A stretch of 64,000 nt of DNA, taken from assembly GCA_002633005.1 (NCBI GenBank), contig NMRA01000097.1, positions 260,686-324,685 of the forward strand. The letters are read 5' to 3'. This stretch comes from Phoronis australis. Taxonomy: Eukaryota > Animalia > Phoronida. Each line of letters opens with the position of its first letter. Position 1 is the stretch's first letter. Shown in pieces: positions 13,349 through 56,965 of this stretch. A program made the translations under genes and the position numbers. The notes below the pieces were generated by a model. The model searched no databases, was not told where the DNA came from, and was given only the letters and a program-made list of their open reading frames with translations.

Positions 13349-13494
13349 CTAGTCGACAAGGAATACTTCGTTTGCCATCAGACGACTATTCGACATCCAG
13401 CCAGTGTAAGCTCTGTTGTACCATCTTCCAGGACACGTCTGTACGTGCAGTTCAATGCTGTAGTTCCCTGCTGGAAGTTCGCAGTATCCCCCAA
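13349..13494 (-). CDS. CTHRC1-like domain 3, exon c (ends in TAG)
   Basis: TTGCAG|TT acceptor, phase 1. Encodes GGYCELPAGNYSIELHVQTCPGRWYNRAYTGWMSNSRLMANEVFLVD*. Confidence 0.88.
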
Positions 13495-14106
13495 CTGCAA
13501 GTGAAAGAGCACAAAGTATATTCATAGGAAAGTGGACACTTTCATAAAAATATCCGGAGTGCGGTTTGCATCGAACTGCGTTCAGTTGGCCAAGGGTCTC
13601 GTAAAGCACTCCCAACTGTTCGCTGATGAAACGAGAACAATGCATAATTCCAGTTTCACCAGTTACCGAACGAAGCTTCCACATTTCACTCCCGTAATTT
13701 TGTATAATTTTGCGTGATCTTTATTTTCCTTACTATCTAGCTTGCGTAGTAGCAGGGGCGGATCCAAGATTTTGAGTTACGGGCATAGGAACAACCAGAA
13801 TGTTTCCTCATGCGCGCGCCCAATCTAAAATGTAAGGATGAAGAGAGTCCCGAATTATTGGGGTTCCAGACCTTATTAATAAAGAACGGGGTTGTTCAAC
13901 GCCTATGCAATGTGCCTCGANNNNNNNNNNNNNGGGGAGCATGGCCCCCTTGCCCCCCCCCCCCCAAGTCCTCTACTGAGTAGGTACGTGTAACGCTGCG
14001 ATTATTTTGGATAAATATCGTGACTTCTGGAAAGCAATACGCGGAGTGCAGGTTGGTCTCACGTGATTATATTTTGTGAAAGTGACGTTTTCGAGAACAC
14101 TCTTAC

Positions 14107-14332
14107 ACAGTGAAGTTTGGTGTTGGTTATCGGAAACGTCGTCCGATCTGTGGAACAACGCTTGATAAATTAATGTTGAAATAGGTCCAGGCTTTGAACA
14201 TTCGGCTCCGTTGAAGGTCAGGTACCATCGGGAACATCCGGGTGTGGTGATGGACGCCAGTGCCTGTCCCAGATCTCCGTTGAACTGTACCGCTAGCAAA
14301 CTCTGAGATGACTTCTTGGTGTACGTGGCCGA
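14107..14332 (-). CDS. CTHRC1-like domain 3, exon b
   Basis: CCTCAG|TCG...CTGT|GTAAGA, 226 nt, phase 0->1. Encodes SATYTKKSSQSLLAVQFNGDLG...GCSRWYLTFNGAECSKPGPISTLIYQ. Confidence 0.9.
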
Positions 14333-14813
14333 CTGAGGACGACATAAAATATACAAGAACATCTCACTGAATAACTAGGTGAACGTTATACGATAGCGTG
14401 GAAGTGAGCACAACCCAGTCAACATTACAGTTCTGGACCAGTACTGCCCCATTACCGTCCACGATACTGTCCCAGTACCGCGTGCAGGCCTGTACTGGCA
14501 CAATAACGTCGTGTACACTGGCAAACGTACTGGACCTGTGCTTTGTATTTTGAAAATCAGTAGGATGTAGCGATGGTTCAATCACGCTTTCTAGCTACTT
14601 TTGAACAGCCCAAATGTTCCGCACAAGGTTTTGTAACTAGCGTTCAACACCGTTACAATATGTCAACCACTCGGTCGACTGGGACAAATTGTTGTCTACG
14701 GAAGAGCAAAAATTGTTAAGTACAATCCACGAGGATTTCGAAAATTAGGTAGAAATACACATGTACACTCTGGGTGCACGCAGACCCCCGTTACAACTAG
14801 AATATTTACTCAC

Positions 14814-14917
14814 AGCGCGCTCAATATGCCCGTTGCTTGTACTATCATTCAACGCCCAACTCCATTGGTGAAAGTTGTACTCGGGCAATCGCTGGGTGCT
14901 CCCGTCAGGTGTCTTTA
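14814..14917 (-). CDS. CTHRC1-like domain 3, exon a
   Basis: CAACAG|TA...GCT|GTGAGT, 104 nt, phase 1->0. Encodes KTPDGSTQRLPEYNFHQWSWALNDSTSNGHIERA. Confidence 0.82.
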
Positions 14918-15220
14918 CTGTTGGCAAATGAAATACCGCGTACAAGACATTCCCTAACAACCAGTGCTAAAACTACAGGCGACTAACGACGTAATGTTAC
15001 ATTAAATTCCAACAGCAATCAGAAAACTACATGTATGTACAGCGCACAATTAGGCAGTAACATTTTTCTCTAACTGTAAACAATAAACAAGTAAACAATA
15101 TTATGTGTGACGGAATTGTTCATGTTTTAATAAAACCAACAACAGTCAAATTAAGTAAAAAGAACCAGCTTGGAGCGCCATCTCAGAATTGAAAACTCCA
15201 TATCTTTTAAAGAGCAGTAC

Positions 15221-15373
15221 CTGCACTGATGTCAAGGTCATAGCGAATTTCTTCCACGATAATTTTGCTTGTGGTGTTCCAGCCCGTATAGCCGTCCATA
15301 GAACCCTCCGGTCTGGCAATATGAATTTGAATGGATATCAGTCCTTCTGCGATGTTGTCGCACAAGCCTTCAA
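15221..15373 (-). CDS. CTHRC1-like domain 2, exon c
   Basis: CCGTAG|TT...GCAG|GTACT, 153 nt, phase 1->1. Encodes EGLCDNIAEGLISIQIHIARPEGSMDGYTGWNTTSKIIVEEIRY. Confidence 0.88.
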
Positions 15374-17769
15374 CTACGGAAGGAAAACAAATCAACCAAT
15401 CTTGAGAGAAAGTCTATAATCTGTTTCTATTGAGGTGTTCCAAAACTCGCTGTCGTGGAGCATGTTAGTTTTCAGCCATCCTAGTTTTCTTATGAGCCTA
15501 AATCAGAGCCTCGAGAAACCACAGAGGCGGCTGGAATGACACCCAATTGGTGCGAGACGGCCAGTCGTCTCCCTTCTCACCAGTTTGTTTAATCAACATT
15601 TTTTTCAGGGAAATGCAGAATGCCAGGTCATTGTTTAGAAATTTAGCTTTACAGCCAAGCGCCTGAAATATCGGACTCTGTGGCATCCCATCATGTACAT
15701 GAATCACTGGATATATTACGGACTGTCGTATTTTTTACTGTAATAAAAGTACATTAAAACTAATTTCCATCTTACTAAACCTTGTCAACGAAAGCTACTT
15801 TAAGTTCTGAGTGATCTTTTTGGAACTCAACCAGGAAACAGTCAGAAAGCCTAAACATTGGACACCACGTTGCCATTAAGCTGATTATCCTAAGCAACTG
15901 CACCGCCTATGAACGCCTCAGACGTGCAAAGTCGATAGCATACCAAGCAAAAGTGTCTTATTTCAAAACACAGCAAAACGACTTTGAATGAAGCATGCAT
16001 ATATACTATATATACGCAATGAGTTATAATTACCGAATAACATTGCAAGACAATTTAATTGACAAATTTTCAGGGTGCTCTTTTGAAACGAACCCCGGTG
16101 TAAAACAGGTATTGTGGAGCGAAAAACTACACTATTGCACCTTCAAAACAGCCAACCAGGCTGAAAACTCGAACCCTAACCTTTAAAACGGGAACCACGA
16201 GGATAGGACAGGATAGCCAGAGACCAAAACGCCACTCCTTCACTTTCTATCAAATGTTGTTTGATGGAAAATAACCCCACCTAATTTAAGTAGCTGTTGT
16301 GATATGTCATTTTACAATCGGGATAATTTTAGATATACGCATGACCGAATGGCGTTCTACGTCTGCGGCGATGCGATCTTTTGCGTCGGCATTCGGCGCC
16401 TGATGTAATATTGCGTCACCTATTGGGCAGTTCAATCTCTGTTCTTCTTCCACGAAGTTGCGAAGATGTCAAACATATTATTCAACAATGGCACTCAAAA
16501 GTTGAAATAATATTTTTGAAAATAATTTTGGAGAAACTATTGAATAATTTGAAATTAACTAAATACTCAAGCAGATGACAACGTAATGAGGGTTATTGTT
16601 TAAGATTATGTTGAAATTCGCACTCAGACAAGTTGCACGAGTGTTACCGAAAAAAATCCAATAGCAACGTCAATATAATAATAGTTTTGTTATATTATTG
16701 GAAATTTTTAACTATTAAATGCAGAAAACAACTGCAAAGTACTTGAAGGTGCTATTACTCAAATTCTGAGAGTACTGACAACGGTCTCAAAATTTTTTCT
16801 TGGTATCAAGAACATAAAAACAAAGACATCAAAGACAAAAAAGCAAGCCATCCTCAATCCTAACACACACACAAGCGAGCAAGCGCGCGCTCGCACACCC
16901 GCCCCCACAACGTACCCACACACTTATAGTAGAATGTTGTCCGGAAAACGTTGTGGATGACTAGTATCTCAGGGTGACCTGGCATTCATTTAGATTACCT
17001 TTATCTACTTATACGCAAGCCAAAATCATTGATACTTTTTACCCTACAACACCAAACTGAGTATTATTTCTATCAATAAGTTTATGTTATTGCATTCGAA
17101 AAGGATGTGATCGACCCTGTACTGTTTCAGTTTGTGACTAGCGGAAAGTACATGCATCAGAGTACACTGAGTTAAATGTTTCCGAAAATAGTTCTTTACA
17201 TGTATTCTATGTAACATTTAAAACTGCATTGTATATAACTTGTAGTCTAGTTGCCAGCCTAATAACTCCCATAGTGAACCCTGCAATGTTGATTACTTTA
17301 TTTTTTTGTTGAAATATATTAAAAATGATCAGGAGAACAAAATTAGCTTGGTTGCACTTAGTGCAACATTGTGCATTTTTTTGCAATTCAAGATGGCGGT
17401 TTCCGCCATTTTAAATTTCGACCAACTTTGTTTTTTTCAACTTGGTGATTAACAGGGTCATGTAATACATTGTTTATACCATTTTCTGTGATGGGGAGTC
17501 CATTTTTGGTTTTATTTTCTTAATACGGGTTCATTTTTAAGGTTAATCCATAGGTCAAAGGTCAAAACTGCCTGGCAGCCTTCTGTCATTTTTTTAACTC
17601 ATTATTTTCCATTTCCTTCGTTAACCTCTTCAAGATATATTTTCAAAATGCTCACTATTACATACATGTACTATAGTGGGCCAAACTGTTTGATCACAAG
17701 TTTCATGAGGGTTGTATGGCATGGAAATGCACAAACGATCAGCAGTTCAATGCTCGTGCGTCTAGTATG

Positions 17770-18406
17770 GTTACTGCCCATTACTCCAAAAATACTCCGA
17801 AAAACCTCTACTCCGAAGAAACCCACGTCCCCTCCAAATATGAACGCATTTGTTTTATTTCATAACCTAATACATCCGCGCTCCCAATCTAAAATATTGG
17901 GGGCTCGAATTTTTGGCAATGTAGACCTTTTACAAACAAAAAACATAGAACTAAAAAACGGGATATCACGTTCAGGGCCATGAATTGTGCATTCGCGCCT
18001 TTTTAGTGGACTTTTGTCTCGTTTTCTCAGACTTTTTGTGGTTTTGAGGGGAACGTTTTTGCCACTTCTTCAAATGGATGGCTCGTTCGAGCTCTCCGAG
18101 CCACCCCCTTGGGTGAGCGCATACAGTGTATGATACATTTTCTCTCGATCAAGTGAACCTCAAAGAAGATAGGATACAAGAGTTGTTAACTACAAACACA
18201 GTAATAATGGCAAAAATAAGTCATTAGACTTCATTGTCCAAATTTGTTTTTGTTTGGGTATTTTGTTAGTTTGTAACAAATTAATAAATCGTTAGTGAAA
18301 TTTTGAGAAAATTTCGGAAGATCGAGTAAAATGTCGTAGTAACGGTGTTTTTTCGGAGTAGACGACCTTCGGAGTAGCTGTTTTTTCGGAGTAGTGGCAT
18401 GGGCCA
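17770..18406. mobile_element. MITE nested in the Academ element
   Basis: TACTCCGAA repeats at the left end are mirrored by TTCGGAGTAG repeats at the right end. Confidence 0.55.
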
Positions 18407-20725
18407 TCGGATTATTAACCTCTTACACTCCAGTGTAGTCAACGGTAAGGCTTGAACAGATGCTCTGTAGGTTTACAGTCTCATCACAGACATGATGTAA
18501 CTCCATGTCTACTCAAATGGGGCCAAGTCTCATGAAGAGCTGGTGGTTTACCTAAAGATGGTCCTTCGACAACCGTCTTAAGGAGACCTTTTCTTCATAG
18601 CAGGCCACCATAATTGTGTACGGCACTTGCGCTGGTGTAGCATTCTTCAAAATAAACCAAACGGCGTGGAATTTTTTTTGGCCTAGAATGCAATAGCGTC
18701 TCCATATACGTTGTCTTAATTTTCACAATTTGCACGTAACTTCATTCATAAATAAACAATAAACGACTAAGCGCAATAACGTCAACCTAAACTACGAGAA
18801 AACTTCGACAAAAGTGCGATAAGCATTCAACTAAGATGCCAAACATTTCTGGCAAGAAGTTTATACCAAGTTTAGCAGCGTGACGGAGTTCTTTCGAATT
18901 TTGTTTTGAAGTTTGCTGTGGGTGGAACACCTGTCCAATAATGCCAAGAAGTTCCACTCGAAGCTGCACGCGCACGTGGATGACAAGACCGCTGTAGTAT
19001 CTGTTGACCTATTGTAAGAACAGGCGTACCGTATATCAATAGAGTAAAAGGTTCTGGGGTTATAAGCTCAGCATTTTAATGAGAGCCGAGCAATTAAGTG
19101 GTCATGTGGTTAACAGTGGGTGTGCGCAGCTTGATCCTGCCATGGAGAATATAAATCATGTGGAATGAAGGTGGTGAAGAGCAAACGTCACGTAGTGGAG
19201 TGACAGTAAAAAGACTAAGTACAAGAAGGGAGTAGTGGACCTGGACGAGGATGACTAGACAAAGATTGCAGAGCAGATATAGAAGCACAGACAGCAGATC
19301 ACTCACCAGCTGTCAATTCTCCCATAACTTCTGCAGTCGCCGAGTAGATTCCAGAACGAGCTGGCCATTGGGCATGAGCAGAGCATTCAGATTTTTAGTT
19401 TTGGTGAGCAGTGAATATTACAAAGCAATTAGTAAAATGTCAAAATGCTGGAGATGCTGAAGAAGCCTGTACTGCTAATGGAATGACATTGCGTTTAAAC
19501 GTTGTTCAGTTGCGTGTTAGTCGTAAGCCAGCAATTTAACATTAAGATAGCTTTTTTAATTCGTTTATTTACCCAGAAAGCCTATCATTAATGTATAGCA
19601 GATACGGCTGGGGTTGGGTAGCACCAACTACAGATCTTTACAACTTATTAGAGTATAATACACTGTACATATTATTAATTGAACAAATAAGTATTTGGAA
19701 AATGCATAGCTGATATCTTTCAGTATGAACTTATTGAGTCCACTCACTATAGCCCAGATCGGCAAATACGGCAGTCTGAGGAAGGGTGACAATGCCATTG
19801 TGGTCAAATCTCTTCGATCGCATTATGTCCCAAATAATTCTGCTCCGAAGGTGGTGTTGGTTGTAGATTTAGGTAGCCTTCTAGCCTTCTATCCTTTTGG
19901 CTGTGAAACAATTATTCGCTTTGCAGAAAAATATGACCACGAAGATCCCTACACAAAGGACCCTGAGACGATAACATGAGGAAAAGTTGAGGAATTCATG
20001 CTAACCCCTGTTCTTAAACACCCCTTTTGCCGCTAAACTATTCTACATAACGCTATGTTAAACAACCTTTTATGTGTATGAAGCTATTCCCTTCTATTCA
20101 ACATCGAGTGGGTCATGAAGAGCCACTGTGTAGTTACACATGGTGAAGCAGACGCTGTATAGGTAAATGCTGAAAGTGATGGAAGAAGGCACCCACATCA
20201 TCAGAATCTCTTGTGACAACACTGACGTCTCCGAGCTCTTGATTTATGGGACGACTAATATGCCAGTAGACGTAAAGACTCAAAGGAACAAGTGGAATGG
20301 TAGTATTTCGGACAAGTGCCGCCAGCATGAGAGGTCACAAGACGGGAGGGTACTGGACAGAGAAAAGTTCTTGGTTTGAACGTGCTGTCAGAGACGCCAA
20401 TAACCCCTCTCTGAGTAGACAAGGAGGAGCCAAATTGAACTGATCGCAGTCACCGACACGTGGTCAGTTAACTTTGAAGCTGTTCTCCATGAACACCGAC
20501 GCATGGGGTGGTGAAAGTTTCTCGAGAACCAGTTAGTCATCAATCGTCAGTAGAAGAAGACAGGTGGCTCCGCAAACTTGGGAACTTTATTTTATTTTAT
20601 AATAAGTTCCACAAGTCATAGTTTATGAGTTTTCCATGGATTAGTACAGTGCCCATCCTAGTTTACGTATATGTAACTTGCATGAATTACGTGTAATCTA
20701 TTCACATTTTCCTATGCACTATATG

Positions 20726-20930
20726 AGGAGGCAGTGTGACTTAGTGTACTTCCTCTTCGCAAGGTTGTGTTTTCGAGTCACACGGGGCAAACTTATGGTC
20801 GCCTGATTCAAGTCCCCAGATACTTAGCCCTGTATCAACTAATAAAGCATAAAGATGGTCCAAGGTGATCATTCCGAAGGGCCTTCCTGAGCGCCATGCC
20901 TAGGTATGGTACAAAAATAATTTAAACTAG
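20726..20930 (+). mobile_element. Possible degenerate tRNA-derived SINE
   Basis: A-box-like GTGTGACTTAGTG and B-box-like GTTTTCGAGTCAC with an A-rich tail; motifs are weak. Confidence 0.3.
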
Positions 20931-21779
20931 TAATTGAGATGTTGGGAGATTATCTTATTTCATTCTTTACACAATGGAATCAAAGAAAGGATAATTCAGC
21001 GTAGCCAACAAATTTAACATTTCGTTGCGCAAAAGAGCTGAATTTTCGTTGTTTCAGTTCAACGTGACTTTTGACCTTTCATTTGACCTTGACTTTGACC
21101 TTGATCCATAAAATAATATCATAAATGGACTCTCCGTCCCATAAAACATTAGAAACCATGAATTGCAGGATCCTACACGGTATCATGTTCAGAGTGTGGA
21201 AATTATGCGAAATTCAAGATGGCGGAAGCCCCTATTTTGAATTATAAAAAATGTTCAAAGATGCAACCAAGTTAATTTTGTTCTCCTAACAACGTATAAT
21301 AAATTTCAAAAAGAAAACTTTACAGTAAACAACATTGCAGGGTCAACTTTTTGGCGACTAGACTATTGAAATTATAAGTAGTCTTAAAAGACAATTACTT
21401 TATATTTTTCCAGTCACCACTTCTAAAGTTATAGCCTTCTTCTTGAAACATTTTTGGGCAATAGGCAAATTTTTGTTCTGCCAAACAATTTCTTATATTA
21501 TTTCACATATTGACACGAAGTTAAAAAAATACGTATCTTAAAAGGTATTATTGGTCCATTTACCTTGATTAACTGAATTTGTAACGGTGTTCTCTTCAGA
21601 AACGACCTATTTCAAATATGTGTATGTATATTCGAGAACTCTATAAATTCAATGAATGAGTAAAATCTGTTATTTTCATTAAGTGGATCATTAATAAAAA
21701 GAACACCACCACTAGCATACTTGCTAAAGATAGATTTTATGTCTATTAGTATTTAATCAGTCTGCTATAAACGTGTTGA

Positions 21780-22104
21780 GAGTGTGTCATTCGCAACTTG
21801 ATATTCACCTACAGAGCTCCAATCATTGTTATCAGCAGTGCTTTTTCAATGACTTTGCAATAATACACCAGGCAGTAATAACAAATGAGCTTAAAATTCG
21901 TGAGGCTTTACACATCAGTTGGTGCAAGCCCAATCTCAATAGGCAACTAACACACCACAGGTTGTCATTGTTGGTCTAGTTCATTGTCACTCCCTGTAAC
22001 TGACTGTACATGTATCTGTGCTTGTTGCTGGGCCTAGCTAGGTGGCCACTGTATTATCACTTCTGAGGATGGTGTTGAATAAATGACACCGAAACATGTC
22101 AAGT
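21780..22104 (+). mobile_element. Penelope-like element 3' fragment (GIY-YIG endonuclease C-terminus + pLTR)
   Basis: HLQSSNHC...FAIIHQ...ELKIREALHISWCKPNLNRQL matches the Penelope EN tail (LxIxExLxI...PxLNxQ) and is followed by a hammerhead motif. Confidence 0.8.
22059..22104 (+). ncRNA. Minimal type I hammerhead ribozyme
   Basis: ACTT-CTGAGGA-T-GGTGTT(GAATAAAT)GACACC-GAAA-CATG-TC-AAGT. Stem I is ACTT/AAGT, the core is CUGANGA/GAAA, stem II is 6 bp, stem III is the palindrome ACATGT, and GUC cleavage is predicted after 22100. Confidence 0.85.
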
Positions 22105-25585: not shown

Positions 25586-27440
25586 CGGAAGATTTTATTT
25601 GGATTTGGTACAGATGGGAGTTTAGGGTCGGTAAACTTTTAGTGTCCGACTTTTCTAATATGGTTATCAGTCATCGGCAAATTCGTCTGCCTGTGGCTTA
25701 AAATACACGGGATACATGTAGGATTAGTACTTAATACGAAGGGAAGTATTATAGCCCTGTTCAGCTAGCCAAGATGCCTATTACTACGAGCACATTGCCT
25801 ACAAAACTGTGGCAAGTGCATTTTGATGGATTTGCTGATGGCCTATTCGCTGCAAAATTATCACTAGATTACATGCATAGTTTAAGAGTTCCCACCATGC
25901 ATTTTCTTATTTGTTGAGGTTTCATTTAGCTAATATGAAGTGAATACCATGAAATCGAAAAAAAATATTCATTTTGTTATGCAAAATAGACGCAATTTTT
26001 TATGTTTTTTTAGAAAGTTCGTTATTTCCAATTTTCCCTCGAGGTGATGTATAATGGGTGGAAGACGTTTGGTCATCTTGCAATCAATTGCAATGGCGGA
26101 ACACATCAGATAAGAAGACGTGGATAATTTTGAGCAAGAACTGGGCAACAATTATGCAATAGAGACACTTAACAATCACTGTCAAAGGCATCAATAAACC
26201 TAGGTCACTCGTATTCAAAACTGTGATGATGGAATGAGCACGGTCGAAACACAATACATGTACATTATTTAGCCTACATGTACATGTCGTACTACTCGAT
26301 CTGGGCTGGCGATGAGGGCCTGGCATCACTCGCCTTAGAATTGAACCGGTTTTATCCGTTGCTTATAAAATTTGCAAATACTCTTACACAGTGGCAAGTC
26401 CTTCATCGTAACGCCGCTTTTGTGTTTGGTCAAAACATGATTCCTTAAATAGTGCTAAACAAATGGTGGCTACCGACCGATTTTCATGCTCCCCACTTCC
26501 ATTCCACACTCTTGTATGGCGCACACACCGATCCCAATTCTATGCAACTTTTACGTCTTTAAGAAATTCGAACACATATAGGTTCTTGGTTCATTTTCTG
26601 TTAATATAATCCCCACAAATGCACCTTTTCATGTCTGAAGAAAGAGAGTCTCCGCGAATCTTCCTCACAACTCCTCAGTAACGCATTGGTAAAAAACAAA
26701 AGTCACTGACGGAGACCGTCTTCCACTGTTTACATGCCTTCCCGATAACAGAAAAAGTTGTTTTTAATGTTTGATTTGTTTCTGAGCAATAGGTATACTA
26801 AAATCTATCAAATTTATTAAGGTGTATTAATAAAATTTATCTGAGACACAGGGTCATGGTGGGAACTATTTAATGAAAGCACTGTTTTTTGGATGAATCA
26901 GAGGAAAGCACGTGCAATCTCATTGCATTGAAATGAAACATCCCTCTACGTTATTGGCATGTCGCATGCACCTGCTCTGCCGTACTTCAAATGTATTATT
27001 TAGACAGATGGTATAATTAAACAGTGATGGATTGTCATATCTTTAAATATTTTGATGGTGGAAGAGTATTTTGCATTCAAGGTGGCTTTATATATGTAAC
27101 CGTTTTGTGCAACTGTCTACTTTGGGACGACATGGGGTCAAAATTGCAACTTCTCTACACTGAATAAAAAAGGCGATACCATTGAAGCAACATTGTACCA
27201 GATGTTGAATGCATTGAAACGGAAGGGAAACTGGTGTTATTAATTTCTCAGATTTTGTTTCAACTAAGATGTTACAAACTGACCGTGCTATCAGGGGAGT
27301 CTTCGTCTAGACGTACGCGCGTCACGGCGCCTTTTCGACAAAGTACATGTGAGCTGCAAAGTACATTCCCGTCCACTTACTTAATCCAGTTCCATCATGA
27401 GTTTTGTCAACAACAGCGGGGTCCCAGTGGGCGTAAATAC

Positions 27441-27627
27441 AGCACACATCACGAATTTTTGGCCGACCGGTCGGAAATTGGTCGACGACCGGCCGTCGAC
27501 CGGTCGTCTAGCCGACCAGCAGCCGACCAACAACGGTCGGCTAGGAGCCGTCTACTGAGTCGCCTCTGTGGTCGGCACTTGGGTCGGCTAAGTGGTCGCC
27601 TAGCGTAGACGACCAATTCGGATTAAG
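27441..27627. mobile_element. End of a GC-rich TIR element with GTCGAC/CCGACCGGTCGG repeats, inserted into a copy of domain 2 exon b
   Basis: The sequence diverges from the exon after GCGTAAATAC into palindromic repeats and ends at the N at 27628. Confidence 0.55.
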
Positions 27628-27678
27628 NCTTTTCGACAAAGTACATGTGAGCTGCAAAGTACATTCCCGTCCACTTAC

Positions 27679-27880
27679 TTAATCCAGTTCCATCATGAGT
27701 TTTGTCAACAACAGCGGGGTCCCAGTGGGCGTAAATACCATCTATGGCACCGGGGCTTGGTCAATCATGGCCGTCAAAACGAATAAAGTAGCGCAGAATG
27801 CCATATTGGCTCAAGCAGATGTTAGATTGAAACAGAACGCGTATGGCAGAGTCCGCCGCTCTCTTAAAGTAGTGGTACGT
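27679..27880 (-). CDS. CTHRC1-like domain 2, exon b (in-frame TGA at 27761-27763)
   Basis: TTCCAG|ACG...TTAA|GTAAGT, 202 nt, phase 0->1. Encodes TYHYFKRAADSAIRVLFQSNICLSQYGILRYFIRFDGHD*PSPGAIDGIYAHWDPAVVDKTHDGTGL; the TGA aligns with the Cys of FNGAEC. Confidence 0.8.
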
Positions 27881-33275: not shown

Positions 33276-33806
33276 GTATTAGGTACGTTGCAAGGCCACA
33301 CACTTGTAAATTAAGTCAACAGCAGGGGCAGTAAAAGTATATCTACTCATTAACGAAAATTAGTTAACCCATTGCAATTGCAAATCCTTGCTATCGCTAA
33401 TCACCCCTGCATCTGGGGGCCAGCAAACATAAGATCTGGGGAATAAAAGCTTCCTTCTCTAAGCAACGCAAATTATTCACTCACTCTTGACATCTGAGTA
33501 TATTATCAAGTACTGTTTTCGCCAAATACTCGCTGTATGGTAGTTTAACAGAAATATGCATTTATGGCGAGGTCCCTTATAGCGCAGTGCAATAACCTGT
33601 TTGCTCATTCTACTTAATTTTACACCACGCGAGGGCGCACCCGTTGCGCATGCACAACTCGAAACAGTGGACTCCTTTATTGAAAGAGCTAGCGGCTAGA
33701 TCCGTTATCTGTTGACGTGTTTTGATTCCTTACTCTTTGGCATGAGCTGTCATCTCTACCGTCGTTCACTTAAAGCACGCAGTTCTCCATATGCGTTGTC
33801 CCTTAC

Positions 33807-33889
33807 GTAAAGGAGGCCGTTGTCCGCTTCATTCGCACCAGTCCACGTGTATTGTTTGATGTTGAATCTGGATAGCTTTGGACAGGTTC
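33807..33889 (-). CDS. CTHRC1-like domain 2, exon a
   Basis: CCCTATAG|GA...TAC|GTAAGG, 83 nt, phase 1->0. Encodes TCPKLSRFNIKQYTWTGANEADNGLLY (NxKQxxW...DxG motif). Not in the ORF track. Confidence 0.8.
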
Positions 33890-35379: not shown

Positions 35380-35547
35380 CTGGGCAATGTCCCCATGTTT
35401 GGTCGTTGTCGTAATTAGATGTGGTCGCACACCACGGTTGACTGCGATCCTCCCTAATGCATGCACTGTACGACAGGCCCTTGTAAACGAACGGGAACTT
35501 GCAAGATGAACCACCAGCATTACCGCCATAAGTTGGCAGGTCGGTAT
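35380..35547 (-). CDS. Fibronectin type II domain exon
   Basis: CCACAG|AT...CCAG|GTAAGG, 168 nt, symmetric phase 1-1. TYGGNAGGSSCKFPFVYKGLSYSACIREDRSQPWCATTSNYDNDQTWGHC is a canonical FN2 signature with 4 Cys. Confidence 0.92.
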
Positions 35548-45651: not shown

Positions 45652-45807
45652 CAAAAGATCGTCTCATATCATTTTCTTCTACAGTCATGGACACACCGTT
45701 GCCGAGCCAGCCCGTATGTGCGTCACCCACGTTGATGTCGCTGCATTCCCCCACATAGAATTTTATTATGATGTCGCCAGATATTTGTAAATCACAGATG
45801 CCACCAA
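45652..45807 (-). CDS. CTHRC1-like domain 1, exon c
   Basis: TTTCAG|TT...TTTG|GTGAGA, 156 nt, phase 1->1. GGICDLQISGDIIIKFYVGECSDINVGDAHTGWLGNGVSMTVEE matches CTHRC1 EGLC...[26 protein letters not shown]. Confidence 0.9.
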
Positions 45808-45959: not shown

Positions 45960-46158
45960 CTTGGGCCGGGCGAAAATCATCCCTTGCTTTGTCTTTGTAC
46001 CACACTATCTCAAGTTTCCCAGGCGAGGAGCATTCTTGATCGTTGAAAGTAAAGTACCAGCGATTGCAGCAATTTCCGCAGTTCCACCCGGCGCGAATAA
46101 TACCTCGGAAACGTACCCTCAGTGAAGTGAAAGAATATTGCTTCTTAAAGGTTGTAGT
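45960..46158 (-). CDS. CTHRC1-like domain 1, exon b
   Basis: TTTCAG|ACT...CAAG|GTGAGT, 199 nt, phase 0->1. TTTFKKQYSFTSLRVRFRGIIRAGWNCGNCCNRWYFTFNDQECSSPGKLE matches CTHRC1 FTKMRSNSALRVLFSG...[21 protein letters not shown]. Confidence 0.9.
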
Positions 46159-47833: not shown

Positions 47834-47928
47834 CAATAAAATTCCGGTGTCACTATGGGAAACGTAGTCCTTGTAGTAGTTAAATCTGATGTTAGCAACC
47901 GGAACTTCGTCACATTCTTGATATGGCG
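47834..47928 (-). CDS. CTHRC1-like domain 1, exon a
   Basis: ACAG|CG...TTG|GTAAGT, 95 nt, phase 1->0. Encodes PYQECDEVPVANIRFNYYKDYVSHSDTGILL, positionally equivalent to CTHRC1 NYKQCSW...DLGKI. Confidence 0.75.
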
Positions 47929-49609
47929 CTGTGTTTGGAAAGAAATCATTTCATTGCCAATGTCTAGTATTAAAATTTTGGACGCTGGTTTAGTAAATTC
48001 TCTTGAGTTGGGAATATCAAGATATGTCTCATTGTAAGCATGTGTTCATATAGTTTCGATGACGTTAAAACAAACTTGTCTACTGTTACTGGTACTGCAA
48101 TAGACAGCAAGAAACAAACACTGTGGCCGAAAAAAATAACTGCTACAGGTGATTTATAGGATACAGCGTTTCACGGTGCCTATCAGGCATGCCTAAAACC
48201 ATTAACCACGTCACCCTTGACTAGGAAATTCGTCTGATAGGAAGAAGATAGGCCACAATCCGTTGGACAGACAATGTCTCCTTCTATCCTTGAAAGGCTA
48301 AACATGATTATTTGACAGACAATCCACATGGATCAATTTCACACAACAGATCTCTATTCCGTTTTGCAAGAGGAGATGTGAAACATAATCAGTTCAAGTG
48401 TTTCATTTCTATCGCACTGTGATATATTAAAAAGATTATGCTTGTACGGTCTGGCCATACTCCAAGGGAACTAGCTTCAAGCTCCGCAGTAATAAACTAG
48501 AATGGATTGATAAACTATCACTTGCGTGAGTATTCTCAGAGATTTTGCACAATGTTGATGGACTAATTCGAGAAGTTCTTTTTTGTGTTTTAAGATAATT
48601 GCATGGCATGCAATTCAAACTTTGTGAAACAATCTTATCAGAAAGCGGAAGTGATACAGCAGATTGAAGAAAAATGTAACCCGACAAAAAGCCTGCTCAC
48701 CACAGCATGTGTACAAGGAAGTGAATGAAAACCCGCTAGATATACATGTAATACTGAAGCAAATTCTGGGTTTTGCTTATGTATCCCTTAGTTACCGTTG
48801 CAGAAATTCCACAAGCGATGAGCTAGTTCTTTTCAATTATATCATAGGAGAAAGTTCTCTACAGTGCGATTTCAGATAAATAGACAAGAGGTCGGTCAAA
48901 ATAGACCAAGAGATTTGTAAAACGCAACCATCTCAGAGCGGTTTTAGATAGTCTCTCACTTCTAAGACAGACCTCTCCTAGGAAGAAACGTCTTTCTCGC
49001 GAGAACAGAGTACCAATTCCACAACGCGCTTGCTGAGTCCAAGGGCAGTCTTTGGCTGCCAGCAATTTAACAATGAAACTGGGATACATTATTTCGTGTT
49101 AAGTGACGCCATATGTGTAAGATGACGAATAATTTGTTGCTTACGTAATTAACGAAACAACTTAAGGTACGGGGTATATGTAATCACTTAATAACTTAAC
49201 ACCACGCATAACGCCCCGCCGTCACAACCTGCTCTTGACCTATCAAGGAGTTCTTATTTATCAGCACCACTTAGGGAACCTGAAGTCTCACATGTATGTT
49301 GTTACGTAATGTTATGAATGACATACCAACGCAGACGCCCACGTTGTTAGTGCAGTCTTTCACACAAGCCTCGCCCCCGTCAGCGCAATTGGCGATCCTG
49401 CATTCGTCGAACTGAAAAGAGCGATTGTATGTCTATATCTAAAATTAGCACTTTCTGTGAACAATTTTATCGCGTTTCTGGTTTCTAAAAATGTGTCCTC
49501 TGTTTCCGAGTACTAATTTTGACCGTTGAATTTTAATCCAATCAAATGCAAAATTCAGAGTGAGTCTATTCAGATAGCAAGACGTGATTGAGGAGTAGGA
49601 TCATTCAAC

Positions 49610-51270
49610 TTAGGTGTGGCCTCTTTGCTGCAATACCCGTTAGCGCCATACCTTTTTATTCTATGTGCAGAGATTATGGGCTGGCTCTTTAGACTAGACA
49701 ATAGCGTTAAGGGCATCCAGGTAGGATCGGTGGAATACAAACTGATTCAGTATGCAGATGATACGGTTATATCTTTAGATGGCTCGGAGCAGTCTCTGCG
49801 GAAAATACTTCACATTTTAAACCCTTTGCAAAATATTCTGGTCTAAAGCCTAATATGGAAAAAAACAATTTGTATTTGGATAAGTTCTATGAAGGGTAGC
49901 TATCAAAAATGTGCTGTGACCTAAAACTGAACTGGGCAACATCAGAATTCACTTTACTGGGTATTCAATTCTCCTGTGTTTTAAATAAAATTCCCGACAT
50001 TAATTTTAACAGCAAACTTGGTGAAATAGAGAAGGCTATAGACATGTGAGGAAAAAAAACTTGACACTTTTTGGAAGAATAACAGTTGTGAAATCGATAA
50101 TTATGCCAAAATTCATTCACGTTTTTACAAGTCTCCCGTTCCCATCACAGCCCTTCCTGAAGCAGCAGAACAAAACGTTGTACTGTTTTATATGGAACGT
50201 TAAAACGGAAAAATGTCGTAAGATTATGGCTCAAGAGTACAATGTTGGCGGAGCTAGAACGATTGACGTCAGCTCTTTTATTGAAGCCATTAAACTAACT
50301 TGGTTTCGTAGACTACTTTGTCAAAGTACTACAAGTCCATGGGCAGTTTTAGCAAATGGCCCGTTATTTCTATTTTACAAAGATGTCCCAGATGACTTCT
50401 AATGTATTTTGGAAAGAGATCCTTCATTGTGTCCATGAATTCAGATTGTTAGTTCCCGAAAGCGATGGAACATTTCAGCCTCTATGGCTTAATTCGAATA
50501 TACTGATTGATAACAAACCTGTTTTCTATAAACGGTGGTATCAAAAGTCAAAACTCATGTACAAGACTTACTTAAATCTGATGGTTGTTTCCTTAATTAT
50601 GAGGACTTTATACAGACGTTTGACTTTACCCTCCTCAAGTAACTTTATTTTACGGTCTACGAAGTTCATTATATGCTAGTTGGAGCCATCTCACAGAGGG
50701 AAAGCATCAAGTAAGTTTACCGCGTCGTCCACGATACATTGAAGTTATTTTGGGAGATGTCAAAGGATTAGATAAAATTTATCACGTTAGTTTCTCTCAG
50801 AATGGTAGAAAAACAACGTGTCAAATGAAGTGGAGTAAAAATTAAACCTCCCGAATACCGCAAAATGGTGGTACAATGTTTTTCTTACATCTATTTATTC
50901 ACCGAAGATGTAACTCTGAGGTGGTGCCAGTTTAGGCTGGTTCATACAATTATAGGTTGTAATTATTTTTTTTACACGATAGACGTAATTGAGATCTCAT
51001 TGTGGACTTTTTGCTTAAACGAGATTGAGTCTATTGCCCATGTGTACTGGTCTGGTAACATTACTCAGCAGTTTTGGACTAATGAAAATAACTAGCTCGA
51101 AGATCCTGTTGGACATTGTTTAGAACTGTCTGTACAATCGGTTCTGTTTGGTGTTCAAGTGAAAGCAGTTTTACAAAATATGATTCTTTGCCTCGGAATG
51201 TATCACATTTATAAACAAAGTAAAATGCAAATATCCGTGCCTTACCATGTTGCATTGTACATTTCCACTG
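49610..51270 (+). mobile_element. 5'-truncated degenerate L1/Tx1-like LINE
   Basis: PLAPYLFILCAE, KLIQYADD, LTLFGRITVVKS, FIWN, NVFWKEIL, LRWCQFRLVH and a decayed CCHC (TFCLNEIESIAHVYW). Ends at a (TA)n tract. Confidence 0.88.
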
Positions 51271-51328: not shown

Positions 51329-51359
<31 letters not shown>

Positions 51360-52792: not shown

Positions 52793-53628
52793 GGATTTTA
52801 CTGAAAAACCCTCGACCCTCACATCCCTTGACCCCTCGACTCAAGCCCCCTCGACCCACAAACCCGTCGACCCACGACCTGTGGCAATAGAGGAATGTTT
52901 GCGCTTTTTACATATTTCATAATCTTATTACGTTGCTGAGCGATTTTCGCATTAGACATACCTGCACGCGAGTCTGCTCTAGCTGAAGACTGATGATTGA
53001 AAACAAAAAGTGGCGTGAGAACGCCGGTGGTCTTGAATAGTACTTTGTGAGCGAGCTACCTTTGTCCCTGAAATAGTCTCACTAGCTTCTACCTACGGCA
53101 CAGTTCTAATAAATTTAGGGAGGGAGTACGTTAACGGGAATTTACATAACACCATATTTTTATTATTTTCTTTACATTTTATACTCGTTTAGAATAAACG
53201 CCATATAACGTATAACTGTATTTACTGGTGAAATTACAGTTTTGTCGATACCTCGCATTTTTCAATTCACTAAAGAGCAGACGAGACGGTTAGGCTACAC
53301 TCTGCCGGGAACTACATTTGTAAGATTGTCAGTTCTTAGATTTGATTTTGTCGCTTTTTTCTGTTTTTGGATTTCAAACTTGCCGAACGGACTGCTCTAA
53401 TTGCAAAAAACTGGGAAAACCCAGCCGAGCTCACGGCCCAACTCATTGGTCCTACAGTCAGCATGTGTTCTACATGTTTGTTAACATCAAGTCTAGTTTG
53501 TGTAGACGGGGTATACGGGTTGCTGGGTCGTGGGTCAAGGGGATCGAGGGTCGTGAGTCGTGGGTCGAGGGGGTTGTGGATCCAGGGGATCGAGGTTTTT
53601 GGGGGTCGAAGGGATTTCGGAACAAACC
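52793..53628. mobile_element. MULE-like MITE
   Basis: GG...CC termini with mirrored CCCTCGACCC / GGGTCGAGGG subterminal repeats; flanks CTTTTCATT / GTTTACATT (9-bp TSD, 7/9 match). Confidence 0.65.
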
Positions 53629-56596
53629 GTTTACATTTGTATATGGTATTTTCCTCGACTGCTGCTCATGGTGAATTGTGCCATGTGAATATTGCACGTT
53701 AAAATTATTCAAAGGAATTGATCCAGACAATTCCGTCATTACGAGTGGGAAGATCATGAGTTCATCGTTTGAATAGCGTTCTTTCACAACCGAGAATGAA
53801 GGTGGATTGACAGAATGGTTAAAATATGGACACGCTATTCTCTAATTAGAATTTTAACACTATAAATATCGTTACATGTCATTTTGGCTGCAAATATACC
53901 TTGTCGTAGTGACTGGAAACGCTATTTTTTCTGATTGTTGTTTTTCATGATTTGCTCCTGTACAAGTATACAGTGTGTGCAATCATATGATCAGCGACTC
54001 ACTCATTATCCTTTTGGCGAGAGTAGTTGAGGATACCCAAATTCAATTGCAAGGCTGTTATTCGTTGATTTCAACTTTGTTTGAGGGTAAAATTACATCA
54101 CATCCACTGCTTTTTGATCCTGTTTCGCGAACAAGGGACAAGTACCGTTGCTGTTAAAACATGATGATCTGAATATAAAAAGTAAATGCGATTGTTGCGG
54201 CATTATATTGAACTCTCCGACGGTAAAGATCGTGAACTTGTGTGTCCTCCGATCCTTTCCAAGTGAAACTGCAACTCGTTTATTTTTTACGCACAGCATC
54301 ACGTAAACAAAATTCTGTTGCGAAGGAAATTACAGGAAAGTTGGGTGATAGTTTTAAGAAAGACCAAAACTTTGGTTGCTGTAAATTTATCAAAAACGGG
54401 ACAGAAGTATCATTTTCATTGATCAGGGTGTAAGTTCTTACCACGATGCAGTAAAAATCCCTTCAACGTACACATGTAAGGGAGAATACTACATGTTACG
54501 GCGTTTTTTGTTTGCCGCAAGATATTTTAAATTATAAAAGGTATTTTGAGCTCTTTCAGTTGTTATATATCAAAACAAAGTAACTTGTTAAAAATAACAA
54601 TTTTTCAAATGGAAGCTGTGGCGCTTTGATCAACAACTCTCACAATGCACGAACTGTGGGTTTTCTTGGGTGAATAGCATTTGTATTAGTGTTATTACTT
54701 TGTTTTCAAATTATTCTCTTACGACATGCAGCGTGACGTCATACACACTTTTAGAGAGAAGCAGGACTTAGTAGATGCGTGAAACTGAACATACAGTGTA
54801 AGAACACAAATTTGACCCCAGACCTCGGAATACTTCATCGAAAGCATTTCAAAACGAAGTCAGTGTTCTGTTGAACCACGCGTATTTATTTTGTTGCTCG
54901 TTCCTCACCAATTACCGTCGAACGACTTCTGAACCAACTATTGTACTGTAACTTACTGTAGATTCCTAGAAAATGTCTAAATTTGTCTTACTTAGGAACA
55001 TCAAATTGACCTATTACTTGATAACTGTCACTGCAAATCCATGGTTACGTGAAGCAAAAACAACATTTTATGTTCGAAACTTCTAACGGTTTTGTTCAGA
55101 ATTAATCTTGAAATTCTAGAATATCCTATTTTATGGGTGGTTTTGTTTTACTATGACTGAACGTTTCTTTTTGTTAGGTTTTACAAATGATATGGGCAAG
55201 TAAAACAATTGATCACAGATTTTAATCACGTAAAAGCTCAAACTTTGCAGTCTTCCTGAAAATGTAATACTTTTATAAACTAGACCTCTGTGCGGGTGCT
55301 GTAGAGTGTCATTCTGATCCACAAGTGCGGTGATATTGTTTAGCTGTGAACCTATTTCCGGGAAAGTGAGACAACTAAGTTTAAAAAGACTAGACCTTTC
55401 CAAACAAACTTTCACTTTTTTCCAAGAAATGACTTGTGAGTATTCCGGTATTTTATAATGCTTTTTTAAAAAAATATTTAAAACAAAATGAGGGCCTCAT
55501 TTTTGAGTTGAAAGTCGCTCCGTTCGCGCTTATCTCGCGGCAAGTTCCGGGCAAAGTCTTGCTGAGATTCAGTTATCACGCTCGATTCACGCCTCTTTCT
55601 CCGGTCTGTCTCCGTTACGGTCACGCCTAGCCAGACCGGAGGCTGCCCGGATGAAGTCTAATAATTCAGTGGCCGTACTGTAGAAAAAAGCAATTGCTAC
55701 GGTTAGACATTCTAATTAATTTCATGCAAAATGAAGTTACTTGATCTAGACTTCACAAGTGAAATGATTCGAAAGTGAGTAGAAGATGGTCTTGTTATGA
55801 TTTTCTCAAAGAACAATACTGTGTCGTGTAGTGTTGCCGGAAGGATAGTTCGTTATTGCTGGTAATCAGGCTCAAAAAGATGCAATTGGGTGTCAAAACG
55901 GGCCAAGTTTTGCGCCGTGCATGGCCTAAATTGTTAATGAAATTTTACTGCTTTTCAAACTCAGAAACCTATGCCCCGTTTTATGAGTTCCTCGTTGACA
56001 GATGATATTTCCTAACGATATACTTAAAAACATTTTCAATGAGAATGAAATTGGGACATATATTCAGTCCTTCATTTAGCAGTGCTTCGCGAAAAGACCA
56101 TTGCTTATTTTCAACAGGAGAATACAACGTATAGTTCACTCTCCATTGTTATTAAAGCAAAGTACTCGCTACTAAAAATAAAATATCTCCTGCAAAGGCA
56201 ACCTTTGTTTTCACAGATCAAAAAATGCGTAGAAGATTTAGGCAAGTTAGTTTAGGCTATTTCAATTAGCTGGGCATACAACTTACAAGAGTAAAACCCT
56301 TTCTACGCATTCCGATCACTCATAACGCTACATAATGAAGCGAATTTGTATGCAGAAATCACAGTGCACAAAAATCGCTCGTACTTCGTATACTGAGTCG
56401 AACCAGTTCGGAGCAAATCGGAATTGCATGTAAACACAGGCTTAGTCCTACACTACCATTGTACAATGTATACGCAATCGTAAACAAAAATCGGTATTGT
56501 AAGCAGGGTTTGACGTGTCACAAACTGTCGCAGTGCTCAAATAACGACAGTCTGTTCAACACGGCAACCCACATGCTCCCACCATCTAGTTATTAC

Positions 56597-56965
56597 CTGA
56601 TTTGACTTGATGTTGTAAATTCGTATCATGCTCCTAAGATTTTCTCCCTCTTTTTCTTCGTTTCCATGCGACTCCATATCGTGATAACGTTCCTGGGAGA
56701 AGTAACAGACTCCTGTATCGTCTTCGTAATAAGCCGAGGTGCAAGCTGCATTTCTCCTGTAGTAGTGGGCGCACTCTATTTCACTTCTTGTACCACTGTG
56801 TTTCGCGAAGTAGGACCGTGAAAACAACTCAGTTGTACTTGTAACAGAACACGTGAATCCCACCGAAATGGAGGTGCACGTTTGGATTTTTTCTGAAAAT
56901 AGTGTGTCTGACTGACAAAACTTAACCAGGCTTAAAAAAAACGCTGTCCAAACGGACAAATACAT
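56597..56965 (-). CDS. Putative first coding exon: signal peptide + PAN/apple-like domain; possibly the 5' exon of the CTHRC1-domain gene
   Basis: ATG at 56965 gives a hydrophobic leader MYLSVWTAFFLSLVKFCQS, then RSEIECAHYYRRNAACTSAYYEDDTGVCYFS (PAN-like Cys spacing, one expected Cys is Tyr). Donor CAG|GTAATA is phase 0, but the next identified exon starts in phase 1, so the link is unproven. Confidence 0.55.

What the first reader, a model, noticed from the sequence alone, without database searches (positions are those of the whole stretch)
13349..56965. Collagen-less triple CTHRC1-domain protein with an FN2 insert (and a probable signal peptide-PAN N-terminus) hidden among transposon-filled introns
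Seen in the sequence: ten GT-AG exons join with compatible phases (about 510 codons) as CTHRC1c-FN2-CTHRC1c-CTHRC1c. Each domain repeats the same three-exon layout (phases 1-0, 0-1, 1-1), which points to tandem duplication of a class 1-1 module. No Gly-X-Y repeats were found. Established knowledge: vertebrate CTHRC1 has one such domain after a short collagen helix that supports trimerisation and acts in Wnt/PCP and matrix remodelling; FN2 modules bind collagen/gelatin. Inference: three domains on one chain could form a single-chain pseudo-trimer that removes the need for the helix, with FN2 tethering it to collagen. I do not recognise this architecture from characterised proteins.
Basis: partly seen in the sequence, partly recalled or inferred. 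Interest (0 to 1): 0.85.

Follow-up and report, generated by a model that had tools for sequence, protein, structure and literature searches.

The report
Triple CTHRC1 protein without collagen stalk
This gene, likely from a marine invertebrate, strings three copies of the head domain of the tissue-repair protein CTHRC1 on one chain with no collagen stalk, like unstudied lamp-shell proteins predicted to fold into a self-contained trimer, but the copy seen here has a stop codon in its middle domain and is likely broken.

Summary
The architecture is real, but this copy is probably damaged. Twelve minus-strand exons, all with GT-AG introns, give signal peptide, PAN-like, Cys-rich, CTHRC1c, FN2, CTHRC1c, CTHRC1c, with no Gly-X-Y run.

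It also missed a second, 110-bp copy of that exon, likely another haplotype, interrupted by a MITE-like element.

The same layout without FN2 exists as uncharacterised Lingula RefSeq proteins, so this is an old family; FN2 is a clean one-exon insert. In one of two AlphaFold models of Lingula homologs (pTM 0.71), two domains superpose on neighbouring protomers of engineered single-chain C1q/TNF trimers (Z 11.7-13.0), which supports the pseudo-trimer idea.

RNA reads cover the exons tested on the coding strand, but those on the TGA exon come mostly from ~90%-identical paralogs, and 5 of 7 over the codon read Cys. No splice junction was confirmed by RNA. Selenocysteine is unlikely (no SECIS found). 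Verdict: new variant of a known kind, interest 0.45.

The parts
56597..56965 (-). Exon 1: ATG, likely signal peptide, PAN/apple-like domain; ends in phase 0
   Evidence: Hydrophobic N-terminus seen in the sequence (no signal-peptide predictor run). Pfam PAN_1 E 0.022, below cut-off. Matches the PAN region of P0002 (E 5.7e-5) and P0152.
49327..49411 (-).
   Evidence: AG/GT ends. Its Cys pattern aligns with the same segment of P0001, P0002 and P0005. No Pfam hit.
47834..47928 (-). CTHRC1c domain 1, exon a (phase 1-0)
45960..46158 (-). CTHRC1c domain 1, exon b (phase 0-1)
   Evidence: PF25815 E 2e-13
45652..45807 (-). CTHRC1c domain 1, exon c (phase 1-1)
   Evidence: PF25815 E 5.6e-6
35380..35547 (-). 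FN2 exon (168 nt, phase 1-1, skippable in frame), inserted at the domain 1/domain 2 boundary
   Evidence: PF00040 E 3.3e-18. A clean 56-residue insert against all aligned homologs. The only FN2 match in the window. Splicing not tested by RNA.
33807..33889 (-). CTHRC1c domain 2, exon a (phase 1-0)
   Evidence: tblastn to P0002, 57% identity. Sense-strand RNA depth about 6-10 in 3 of 3 RNA runs at 90% likeness or more.
27679..27880 (-). CTHRC1c domain 2, exon b (phase 0-1), holding the in-frame TGA
   Evidence: PF25815 E 1e-3 read with X
27761..27763 (-). In-frame TGA at the nearly invariant Cys of the CTHRC1 domain
   Evidence: The column is Cys in 166 of 168 aligned domains. 5 of 7 RNA reads over it read TGT.
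27438..27627 (+). End of a MITE-like, strongly self-complementary repeat joined at a TA inside a second copy of the exon
   Evidence: Fold z -4.85, 0 of 200 shuffles as stable. The junction is present in a 929-nt contig of DNA run X1 (record 1). 29 X1 contigs break off at 27438, so it is a repeat.
27331..27440 (-). Second copy (likely the other haplotype) of the 3' end of domain 2 exon b and its donor
   Evidence: 100% identical to 27629-27738. Similar 98% duplicates flank the single-N gaps at 5606 and 24060.
15221..15373 (-). CTHRC1c domain 2, exon c plus start of the D2-D3 linker (phase 1-1)
   Evidence: PF25815 E 1.9e-7
14814..14917 (-). D2-D3 linker and CTHRC1c domain 3, exon a (phase 1-0)
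14107..14332 (-). CTHRC1c domain 3, exon b (phase 0-1)
   Evidence: PF25815 E 1.2e-13. Sense RNA depth about 4-6 in 3 of 3 RNA runs.
13349..13494 (-). CTHRC1c domain 3, exon c, ending in TAG
   Evidence: PF25815 E 5e-6

Best explanation
The locus is a likely disabled copy of an invertebrate gene family whose products carry three CTHRC1 head domains on one chain without collagen and are predicted to fold into a single-chain pseudo-trimer that likely serves as a secreted recognition and tethering protein. SHOWN: 12 GT-AG exons with compatible phases; PAN-like, Cys-rich, CTHRC1c, FN2, CTHRC1c, CTHRC1c order; no collagen; the same layout without FN2 in Lingula proteins; an in-frame TGA at the most conserved Cys; a second copy of that exon joined to a MITE-like repeat; paralogs about 90% identical in the same DNA run; sense-strand RNA on the exons tested. 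PREDICTED (homolog models): each domain is a C1q/TNF-type jelly-roll, and in one model two of the three pack like neighbouring protomers of a C1q/TNF trimer. INFERRED: short covalent linkers replace the collagen stalk, so three different domains form one head with three non-equivalent faces. The FN2 exon arrived by phase 1-1 exon shuffling into the D1-D2 linker and would loop out from the head to hold it on collagen (FN2-gelatin binding is recalled knowledge). The family undergoes birth and death like mollusc multi-C1q recognition proteins. The TGA is most likely a nonsense change or consensus error private to the assembled haplotype, while Cys-bearing paralogs supply the protein. My odds by step: one multi-domain gene 0.9; pseudo-trimer 0.7; FN2 spliced in 0.8; assembled copy non-functional 0.75; recognition or tethering role rather than Wnt/TGF-beta modulation 0.45.
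For: GENE MODEL; Pfam. HOMOLOGS: a profile of the three middle exons against 1.84 billion representatives gave 413 hits at E<=0.001, best 150 listed. The top ones have 3 CTHRC1_C domains plus PAN_1 and no Collagen hit: P0001 (Lingula XP_013395411), P0002 (unnamed Logan record) and P0004 (Lingula XP_013399537); also P0154 and P0159. The model aligns end to end with them at 28-31% identity, E down to 3e-70. TREE: the three window domains fall in one clade (99/98) with these proteins; best identities are D1 to a D1 (36%), D2 to a D2 (35%), D3 to a D3 (41%). STRUCTURE: AF2 of P0004 gave pLDDT 74.9, pTM 0.71 over 506 residues. Its four best VIA-align matches among 48,161 chains are the single-chain trimers 5HZF (Z 13.0, rmsd 3.6, 229 aligned), 4DOU (12.9, 3.9, 227), 5KCA (12.4, 4.2, 235) and 4ZCH (11.7, 4.1, 224). 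Each spans model residues ~57-506 against roughly the first two protomers, as expected if the cyclic order is opposite to that of the engineered trimers (my reading of the ranges). Single domains match C1q/TNF-like folds at Z 8-12, as Leclere 2020 proposed (PMC7058181). DAMAGE: TGA column Cys in 166 of 168 domains. Of 19 RNA reads on that exon, 0 were 99% alike or more, 1 was 95-99%, 18 were under 95%; 5 of 7 over the codon read TGT. No X1 contig carries the window's letters at 27747, 27752 or 27760. The MITE junction is in X1.
Against: No RNA joint of this gene was listed: 15 joints shown and 82 hidden, none. The FN2, domain 1 and PAN exons lay outside both lays. The spliced window protein itself was not folded; both models are of Lingula homologs without FN2. 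The P0001 model (pTM 0.53) matched single-chain trimers by one domain only (5HZF Z 8.9, 110 aligned; Foldseek TM 0.20-0.27, rmsd about 14). Foldseek on the P0004 model also gave only TM 0.25-0.33 with rmsd about 15. The third domain was never superposed, and I could not see coordinates. Tree forks between D1, D2 and D3 groups are open. The tool's table lists no alternative letter at 27761 for X1 contigs of summed depth 55.1 of 71.5, which read literally means paralogs share the TGA; my contrary reading rests on bookkeeping. The 236 codons after the TGA are open with intact splice sites, so any loss is recent or only allelic. Nothing here tests function or ligand.
Confidence: 0.58

Rival explanations
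1. The gene is intact and expressed in the species. The TGA is an assembly consensus error or a rare null allele, and the MITE copy is a second rare allele.
For: All splice sites are canonical and the rest of the frame is open. X1 record 6 matches the window at 93 of 93 letters over 27762-27854 but is clipped exactly at 27761, which implies another letter there. The window's letters at 27747, 27752 and 27760 are in none of the 8, 8 and 5 X1 contigs covering them. The site lies 130 bp from a gap with haplotype overlap. Some RNA reads on domain 3 differ at only 1-5 other places.
Against: Only 1 of 19 RNA reads on the TGA exon is 95% alike or more (about a fifth of each run was read). The MITE junction is real in X1. 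Logan contigs drop rare variants, so absence of the window's letters is weak evidence.
Confidence: 0.25
2. The TGA is decoded as selenocysteine: a CTHRC1-domain selenoprotein with Sec in place of a disulfide Cys, shared by several paralogs.
For: TGA aligns to a nearly invariant Cys whose likely partner Cys in the next exon is kept. Paralogs carry TGT at the same place. Read literally, X1 contigs of depth 55.1 of 71.5 show no change at 27761, and 2 of 7 RNA reads do not show T>A. The downstream frame is open.
Against: No SECIS: Rfam over 7000-28000 at E<=10 gave 3 unrelated weak hits, and a pattern-and-fold scan found 0 candidates in 4.5 kb after the stop. Contig bookkeeping points to an unlisted non-T letter at 27761: record 4 has 11 of 12 differences listed, record 5 has 3 of 4, record 6 is clipped there. 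None of 167 other domains shows a stop or X at this column (such proteins might be cut short in databases). Sec is typical of redox sites rather than structural disulfides (recalled).
Confidence: 0.05
3. The three domains are independent beads, or the chain trimerises between molecules. The protein works as a multivalent version of CTHRC1 in Wnt/PCP or TGF-beta/BMP modulation rather than as a single-chain trimer.
For: One of two models showed no trimer-like superposition. Two-domain relatives exist (P0005, P0006, P0007) and a four-domain sponge protein keeps collagen (P0003). Vertebrate CTHRC1 acts in these pathways (PMC7058181).
Against: pTM 0.71 over 506 residues and two-protomer superposition on four single-chain trimers. 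Collagen is absent in the three-domain PAN proteins scanned, while the two-domain cnidarian proteins P0009 and P0012 keep it. The two-domain Lingula records may be partial gene models (not tested).
Confidence: 0.2
4. The FN2 exon is a skipped or minor cassette, or a stray exon, and the main product is the plain PAN plus triple-domain protein seen in Lingula.
For: It is 168 nt in phase 1-1, so skipping keeps the frame. None of the 8 aligned close homologs has it. No RNA test covers it.
Against: Intact FN2 (E 3.3e-18) with good splice sites on the same strand at the exact domain boundary, and no other FN2 exon in the window. FN2 also lies next to CTHRC1_C in 2 of 154 proteins checked (P0003, P0138).
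Confidence: 0.15

Closest known systems
Lingula anatina uncharacterised proteins XP_013395411 (LOC106162620), XP_013399537 (LOC106165752), XP_013412409 (LOC106175114), LOC106156679, and unnamed Logan protein P0002
   Same: Three tandem CTHRC1_C domains in all five. PAN_1 in P0001, P0002, P0004 and P0154, with no Collagen hit there. End-to-end alignment at 28-31% identity for P0001, P0002 and P0004.
   Different: None of those aligned or checked has the FN2 insert (P0159 was not checked for FN2). All have Cys where the window has TGA. They are database predictions with no function assigned.
[quoted passage not shown] 2020, PMC7058181)
   Same: The C-terminal domain (PF25815) and a likely signal peptide. 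The predicted C1q-like fold agrees with that paper's modelling.
   Different: No collagen repeat; three domains instead of one; added PAN, Cys-rich and FN2 modules. The N-terminal Cys pair of the typical domain is lost in this family. The parts of the paper I read describe collagen-less domains only outside animals.
Mollusc multi-gC1q proteins, e.g. HcC1qDC6 of Hyriopsis cumingii (PMC5519582, passages read)
   Same: Signal peptide, three tandem C1q-fold domains, no collagen; a working analogy for a secreted recognition protein (its domains bind bacteria, LPS and peptidoglycan).
   Different: A different sequence family (gC1q, not CTHRC1_C), with no PAN or FN2 in the passages read. The word 'trimer' does not occur in that paper.
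Engineered single-chain C1q/TNF trimers (PDB 5HZF, 4DOU, 5KCA, 4ZCH)
   Same: Two domains of the P0004 model superpose on two of their protomers (Z 11.7-13.0, rmsd 3.6-4.2, 224-235 aligned).
   Different: Those are man-made fusions with 6-9% identity. Only two of three domains align in chain order.
Sponge Oscarella pearsei protein P0003 (EukProt) and unnamed ENA protein P0138
   Same: FN2 directly before a CTHRC1_C domain.
   Different: P0003 keeps collagen, has four domains and no PAN. Its domains fall outside the window's clade, so the FN2 pairing is likely independent.

Membership tests
CTHRC1 (sensu collagen repeat + C-terminal domain) | CTHRC1 C-terminal domain (PF25815) | tested here: met
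   Pfam hits in all three domains; local HMM E 3e-27, 7e-19, 1e-31
CTHRC1 (sensu collagen repeat + C-terminal domain) | Gly-X-Y collagen triple-helix repeat before the domain | tested here: not met
   No run of 3 or more in the spliced product; none of 4 or more on the minus strand of the window
CTHRC1 (sensu collagen repeat + C-terminal domain) | Signal peptide, secreted | tested here: inconclusive
   Hydrophobic N-terminus seen by eye; no predictor available; exon 1 link not shown by RNA
CTHRC1 (sensu collagen repeat + C-terminal domain) | Acts in Wnt/PCP or TGF-beta signalling, limits collagen deposition | not testable with these tools
   Function known from vertebrates only (PMC7058181)
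Lingula-type PAN + triple CTHRC1c family (unnamed) | PAN, Cys-rich segment, three CTHRC1c domains in order, no collagen | tested here: met
   End-to-end alignment, E 3e-70 to 2e-47; PAN weak by Pfam but matches family PAN regions
Lingula-type PAN + triple CTHRC1c family (unnamed) | Domains group with the family in a tree | tested here: met
   Clade of 29 of 60 rows at 99/98, which also holds Bugula P0007 and the JGI protein P0011; inner forks open
Lingula-type PAN + triple CTHRC1c family (unnamed) | Uninterrupted reading frame | tested here: not met
   TGA at 27763-27761 in the assembled sequence
C1q/TNF-type trimeric head | Jelly-roll beta-sandwich protomer | tested here: met
   Homolog models match PGP3, PLTL, BclA, EDA and C1q domains at Z 8-12, rmsd 2.3-3.5; prediction only
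C1q/TNF-type trimeric head | Three protomers around a threefold axis | tested here: inconclusive
   Two-protomer superposition in 1 of 2 homolog models (against 62); third domain not superposed; complex prediction not available
Eukaryotic selenoprotein | In-frame TGA aligned to Cys in homologs | tested here: met
Eukaryotic selenoprotein | SECIS element in the 3' UTR | tested here: inconclusive
   None found by Rfam or pattern scan; the true 3' UTR is unknown and divergent SECIS can be missed
Eukaryotic selenoprotein | TGA conserved in paralogs or orthologs and present in mRNA | tested here: inconclusive
   5 of 7 RNA reads TGT; state of the other 2 reads and of 3 X1 contigs ambiguous
Fibronectin type II module | PF00040 with four Cys and aromatic core | tested here: met
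   E 3.3e-18, full profile 1-42
Fibronectin type II module | Binds collagen or gelatin | not testable with these tools
   Recalled knowledge of the family

The most novel reading that the evidence does not exclude
The TGA is read as selenocysteine in a group of paralogs, making this the first CTHRC1/C1q-fold selenoprotein: a secreted single-chain pseudo-trimer with a Se-S bond in its second domain, whose Cys-bearing sister genes are expressed beside it.
Probability: 0.05. Interest if true: 0.88.

Novelty: new variant of a known kind. Interest (0 to 1): 0.45.

Why it matters
CTHRC1 is thought to need its collagen stalk to trimerise, and no solved structure matched the homolog by sequence (0 hits at E<=10). 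A natural, collagen-free, three-domain chain would be a ready-made construct for solving the CTHRC1 head trimer, in the way engineered single-chain C1q was. It would also show that invertebrates turned the CTHRC1 head into a one-chain heterotrimer with add-on modules, in parallel with multi-C1q proteins. I found no description in print, within these searches: CTHRC1 + lophophorate gave 0 papers; CTHRC1 + C-terminal domain + trimer + AlphaFold gave 0; CTHRC1 + fibronectin type II gave 44, and the 10 listed concern human or rodent disease (listing only). The layout already sits in RefSeq as uncharacterised, function is untested, and this copy is likely broken, which caps the interest.

Tried and rejected
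No whole genome was available, so paralogs could not be retrieved whole.

Word-index protein searches were nearly blind: the domain 1 exon gave 1 candidate and 0 hits; P0002 residues 300-611 gave 2 hits among 1512 candidates; the FN2 exon gave 2 turtle FN2-repeat proteins among 4 candidates. No protein of the window's own species turned up. The ESM Atlas gave no usable hit for P0001. A PDB sequence search with P0001 gave 0 hits.

Complex prediction of the three domains as separate chains was not available; there is no verdict.

The first read lay (20 kb) was swamped by intronic repeats, so gene joints, if any, are among the 82 hidden rows. The run search listed no indexed RNA holder, which is no evidence either way.

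My first reading, that paralogs share the TGA and so point to selenocysteine, rested on a miscount. Record 4 has 11, not 12, of its 12 differences listed; I withdrew the reading after (entry 3). I considered that the tool hides T>G after GG as a sequencing-error motif, but 11 listed rows were too few to tell.

Candidate domain 1 first exons at 46907 and 51063 were rejected for wrong phase, weak donors or stops. Foldseek's top Cry, reelin and glycosidase hits have TM under 0.2 and were disregarded.

Six short motifs from the triple-domain proteins were not found in the Leclere supplement (0 of 6; line wraps and gaps could hide them). Earlier findings of this scan: nothing near the locus or by words; 8 of 21 genome-wide notes were shown and none bears on it.

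Full report
1. What is in the sequence. The window is eukaryotic, repeat-rich DNA with 25 N; no whole genome is held. On the minus strand I rebuilt 12 exons from 56965 to 13349. All 11 introns are GT-AG (152 to 12,305 nt) and all phases are compatible, giving 662 codons including the final TAG. Pfam CTHRC1_C hits all three domains, fn2 hits at E 3.3e-18, and PAN_1 is weak (E 0.022). There is no Gly-X-Y run in the product.

2. The middle exon of domain 2 has an in-frame TGA at 27763-27761. In an alignment of 168 CTHRC1 domains that column is Cys in 166, Thr in 1 and the window's X in 1. In addition, 110 bp of the same exon and its donor recur, 100% identical, across the single N at 27628. In that second copy the exon is joined at a TA to a strongly self-complementary repeat end. 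Two other single-N gaps (5606, 24060) are flanked by 98% duplicates, so these are most likely overlapping haplotypes. DNA run X1 holds the repeat-exon junction in a 929-nt contig. The assembled individual therefore likely has a stop on one copy and an insertion on the other.

3. Reads. Three RNA runs (about a fifth of each read) and X1 were laid on 13940-33939 and on 27629-28600. Exon-bearing bins show sense-strand depth of about 2-10 per exon in 3 of 3 RNA runs, with 0 in an intron control bin. No joint of the gene was listed (15 of 97 shown, none). The FN2, domain 1, PAN and last exons were outside both lays. On the TGA exon, 18 of 19 RNA reads are under 95% alike, and their loose ends translate as diverged versions of the same exon. 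They come from paralogs, which X1 also shows: 14 contigs laid, 11 of them under 95% alike. Five of 7 RNA reads over the codon read TGT. For X1, the table lists T>A at 27761 for depth 16.4 of 71.5 and no other letter. Read literally, the rest share the TGA. But record 4 has only 11 of its 12 differences listed, record 5 only 3 of 4, and record 6, identical to the window for 93 letters, is clipped exactly at 27761. This points to an unlisted non-T letter. I take the TGA as probably private to the assembled haplotype; this is inference. No SECIS was found.

4. Relatives. A profile of the three middle exons found 413 proteins at E<=0.001 (150 listed). The best are multi-domain. P0001 (Lingula XP_013395411), P0002 (unnamed) and P0004 (Lingula XP_013399537) have PAN_1 plus three CTHRC1_C and no collagen; P0154 and P0159 are further Lingula three-domain proteins. 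The window model aligns with them end to end at 28-31%, with FN2 as a clean 56-residue insert between domains 1 and 2. Of 154 proteins then held, 2 had FN2: the sponge protein P0003 (collagen, four domains) and P0138; the 263 unlisted hits were not examined. In a 60-row tree the window's domains lie in a 99/98 clade with the Lingula proteins, P0002, Bugula P0007 and a JGI protein with three tandem domains (P0011). Inner forks are open, but each window domain is most like the same-position domain of a homolog. The triplication therefore looks old and FN2 a later addition. The host is likely a spiralian, plausibly a lophophorate (inference from these relatives).

5. Structure. The spliced product could not be folded, so two Lingula homologs were. 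P0001: pLDDT 70.3, pTM 0.53; each domain matches C1q/TNF-type folds (best 4JDN Z 12.3, rmsd 2.3, 119 aligned), but single-chain trimers match by one domain only. P0004: pLDDT 74.9, pTM 0.71; the four best matches among 48,161 chains are engineered single-chain trimers, 5HZF, 4DOU, 5KCA and 4ZCH, with 224-235 residues at rmsd 3.6-4.2, spanning model 57-506 against about two protomers. I read this as domains 1 and 3 sitting like neighbouring protomers, that is, a pseudo-trimer whose cyclic order is opposite to the engineered ones. The third domain is not superposed, and Foldseek's whole-chain TM stays at 0.25-0.33. Cys columns covary in pairs, which suggests disulfides: 15/82 (p 4e-23), 113/122 (1e-14), 124/236 (7e-9); related sequences inflate these p values. 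The window's domain 2 lacks both members of the 124/236 pair but keeps the likely partner of the Cys hit by the TGA.

6. How it most likely works. Shown: architecture, family, paralogs, stop codon. Predicted: C1q/TNF fold and trimer-like packing in a homolog. Inferred: a secreted chain folds its three different heads into one compact trimer without a collagen stalk. PAN and, in this lineage, FN2 hang from it; FN2 would bind collagen (recalled). An expanded family with variable loops (several amino-acid changes among paralogs cluster in codons 27817-27799) and gene decay resembles mollusc multi-C1q recognition proteins such as HcC1qDC6. I therefore favour recognition and tethering in the extracellular matrix over Wnt/PCP modulation, at modest odds.

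7. Literature. PMC7058181: parts 1-5 of 8 of the main text read, plus term searches in text and supplement. It defines Cthrc1 as collagen plus C-terminal domain, models a C1q-like trimer and lists brachiopod and phoronid expansions; I saw no tandem-domain, PAN or FN2 forms. PMC5519582: passages. PMC12716839: three passages, not relevant. Other papers were seen as search listings only.

8. Verdict. This is a real, apparently undescribed variant of the CTHRC1 domain family with a plausible single-chain trimer. It is already present unannotated in RefSeq without FN2, and is seen here in a copy that is likely broken. Interest 0.45.

Noticed in passing
window 4259-6955 and 22505-25585: 98%-identical duplicates on either side of single-N gaps (5606, 24060), most likely both haplotypes scaffolded in tandem, so apparent tandem copies in this assembly need care.
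   Followed up: partly
window 2426-3383 (+): Broken LTR-retrotransposon pol fragments: Integrase_p58_C E 1.4e-5 and RVT_1 E 3.1e-8.
   Followed up: partly
window 9145-9624 (+) and 50025-50402 (+): Reverse-transcriptase fragments: RVT_1 E 7.8e-6 for the first; the second looks LINE-like by eye but had no Pfam hit.
   Followed up: partly
window 29281-33282, 21800-22130, 17880-18040: High-copy intronic repeats with abundant RNA reads on both strands; reads that go back 52 letters or change strand at about 21957-22087 and 30480-30531 suggest hairpin or tandem units.
   Followed up: no
P0011 (JGI/IMG, 904 aa), P0015, P0046: Proteins with three or more tandem CTHRC1_C domains and no collagen hit; P0011 looks prokaryotic or phage-tail-like by eye and its three domains group together (100/100), which suggests an independent triplication.
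   Followed up: partly
P0064, P0084, P0085, P0008: CTHRC1_C fused to RING/TRAF zinc fingers, glutathione synthase, a P-domain, or folate-receptor repeats; some may be gene-model fusions. A CTHRC1_C in place of a TRAF domain would be worth a look.
   Followed up: no
window 27881-27890: Five RNA reads of run X5 run from a paralog's exon into its intron, matching an X1 contig, so they are unspliced or intron-retaining.
   Followed up: no
window 40360-40844 and 43327-43737: Degenerate low-complexity satellite present in both orientations.
   Followed up: no
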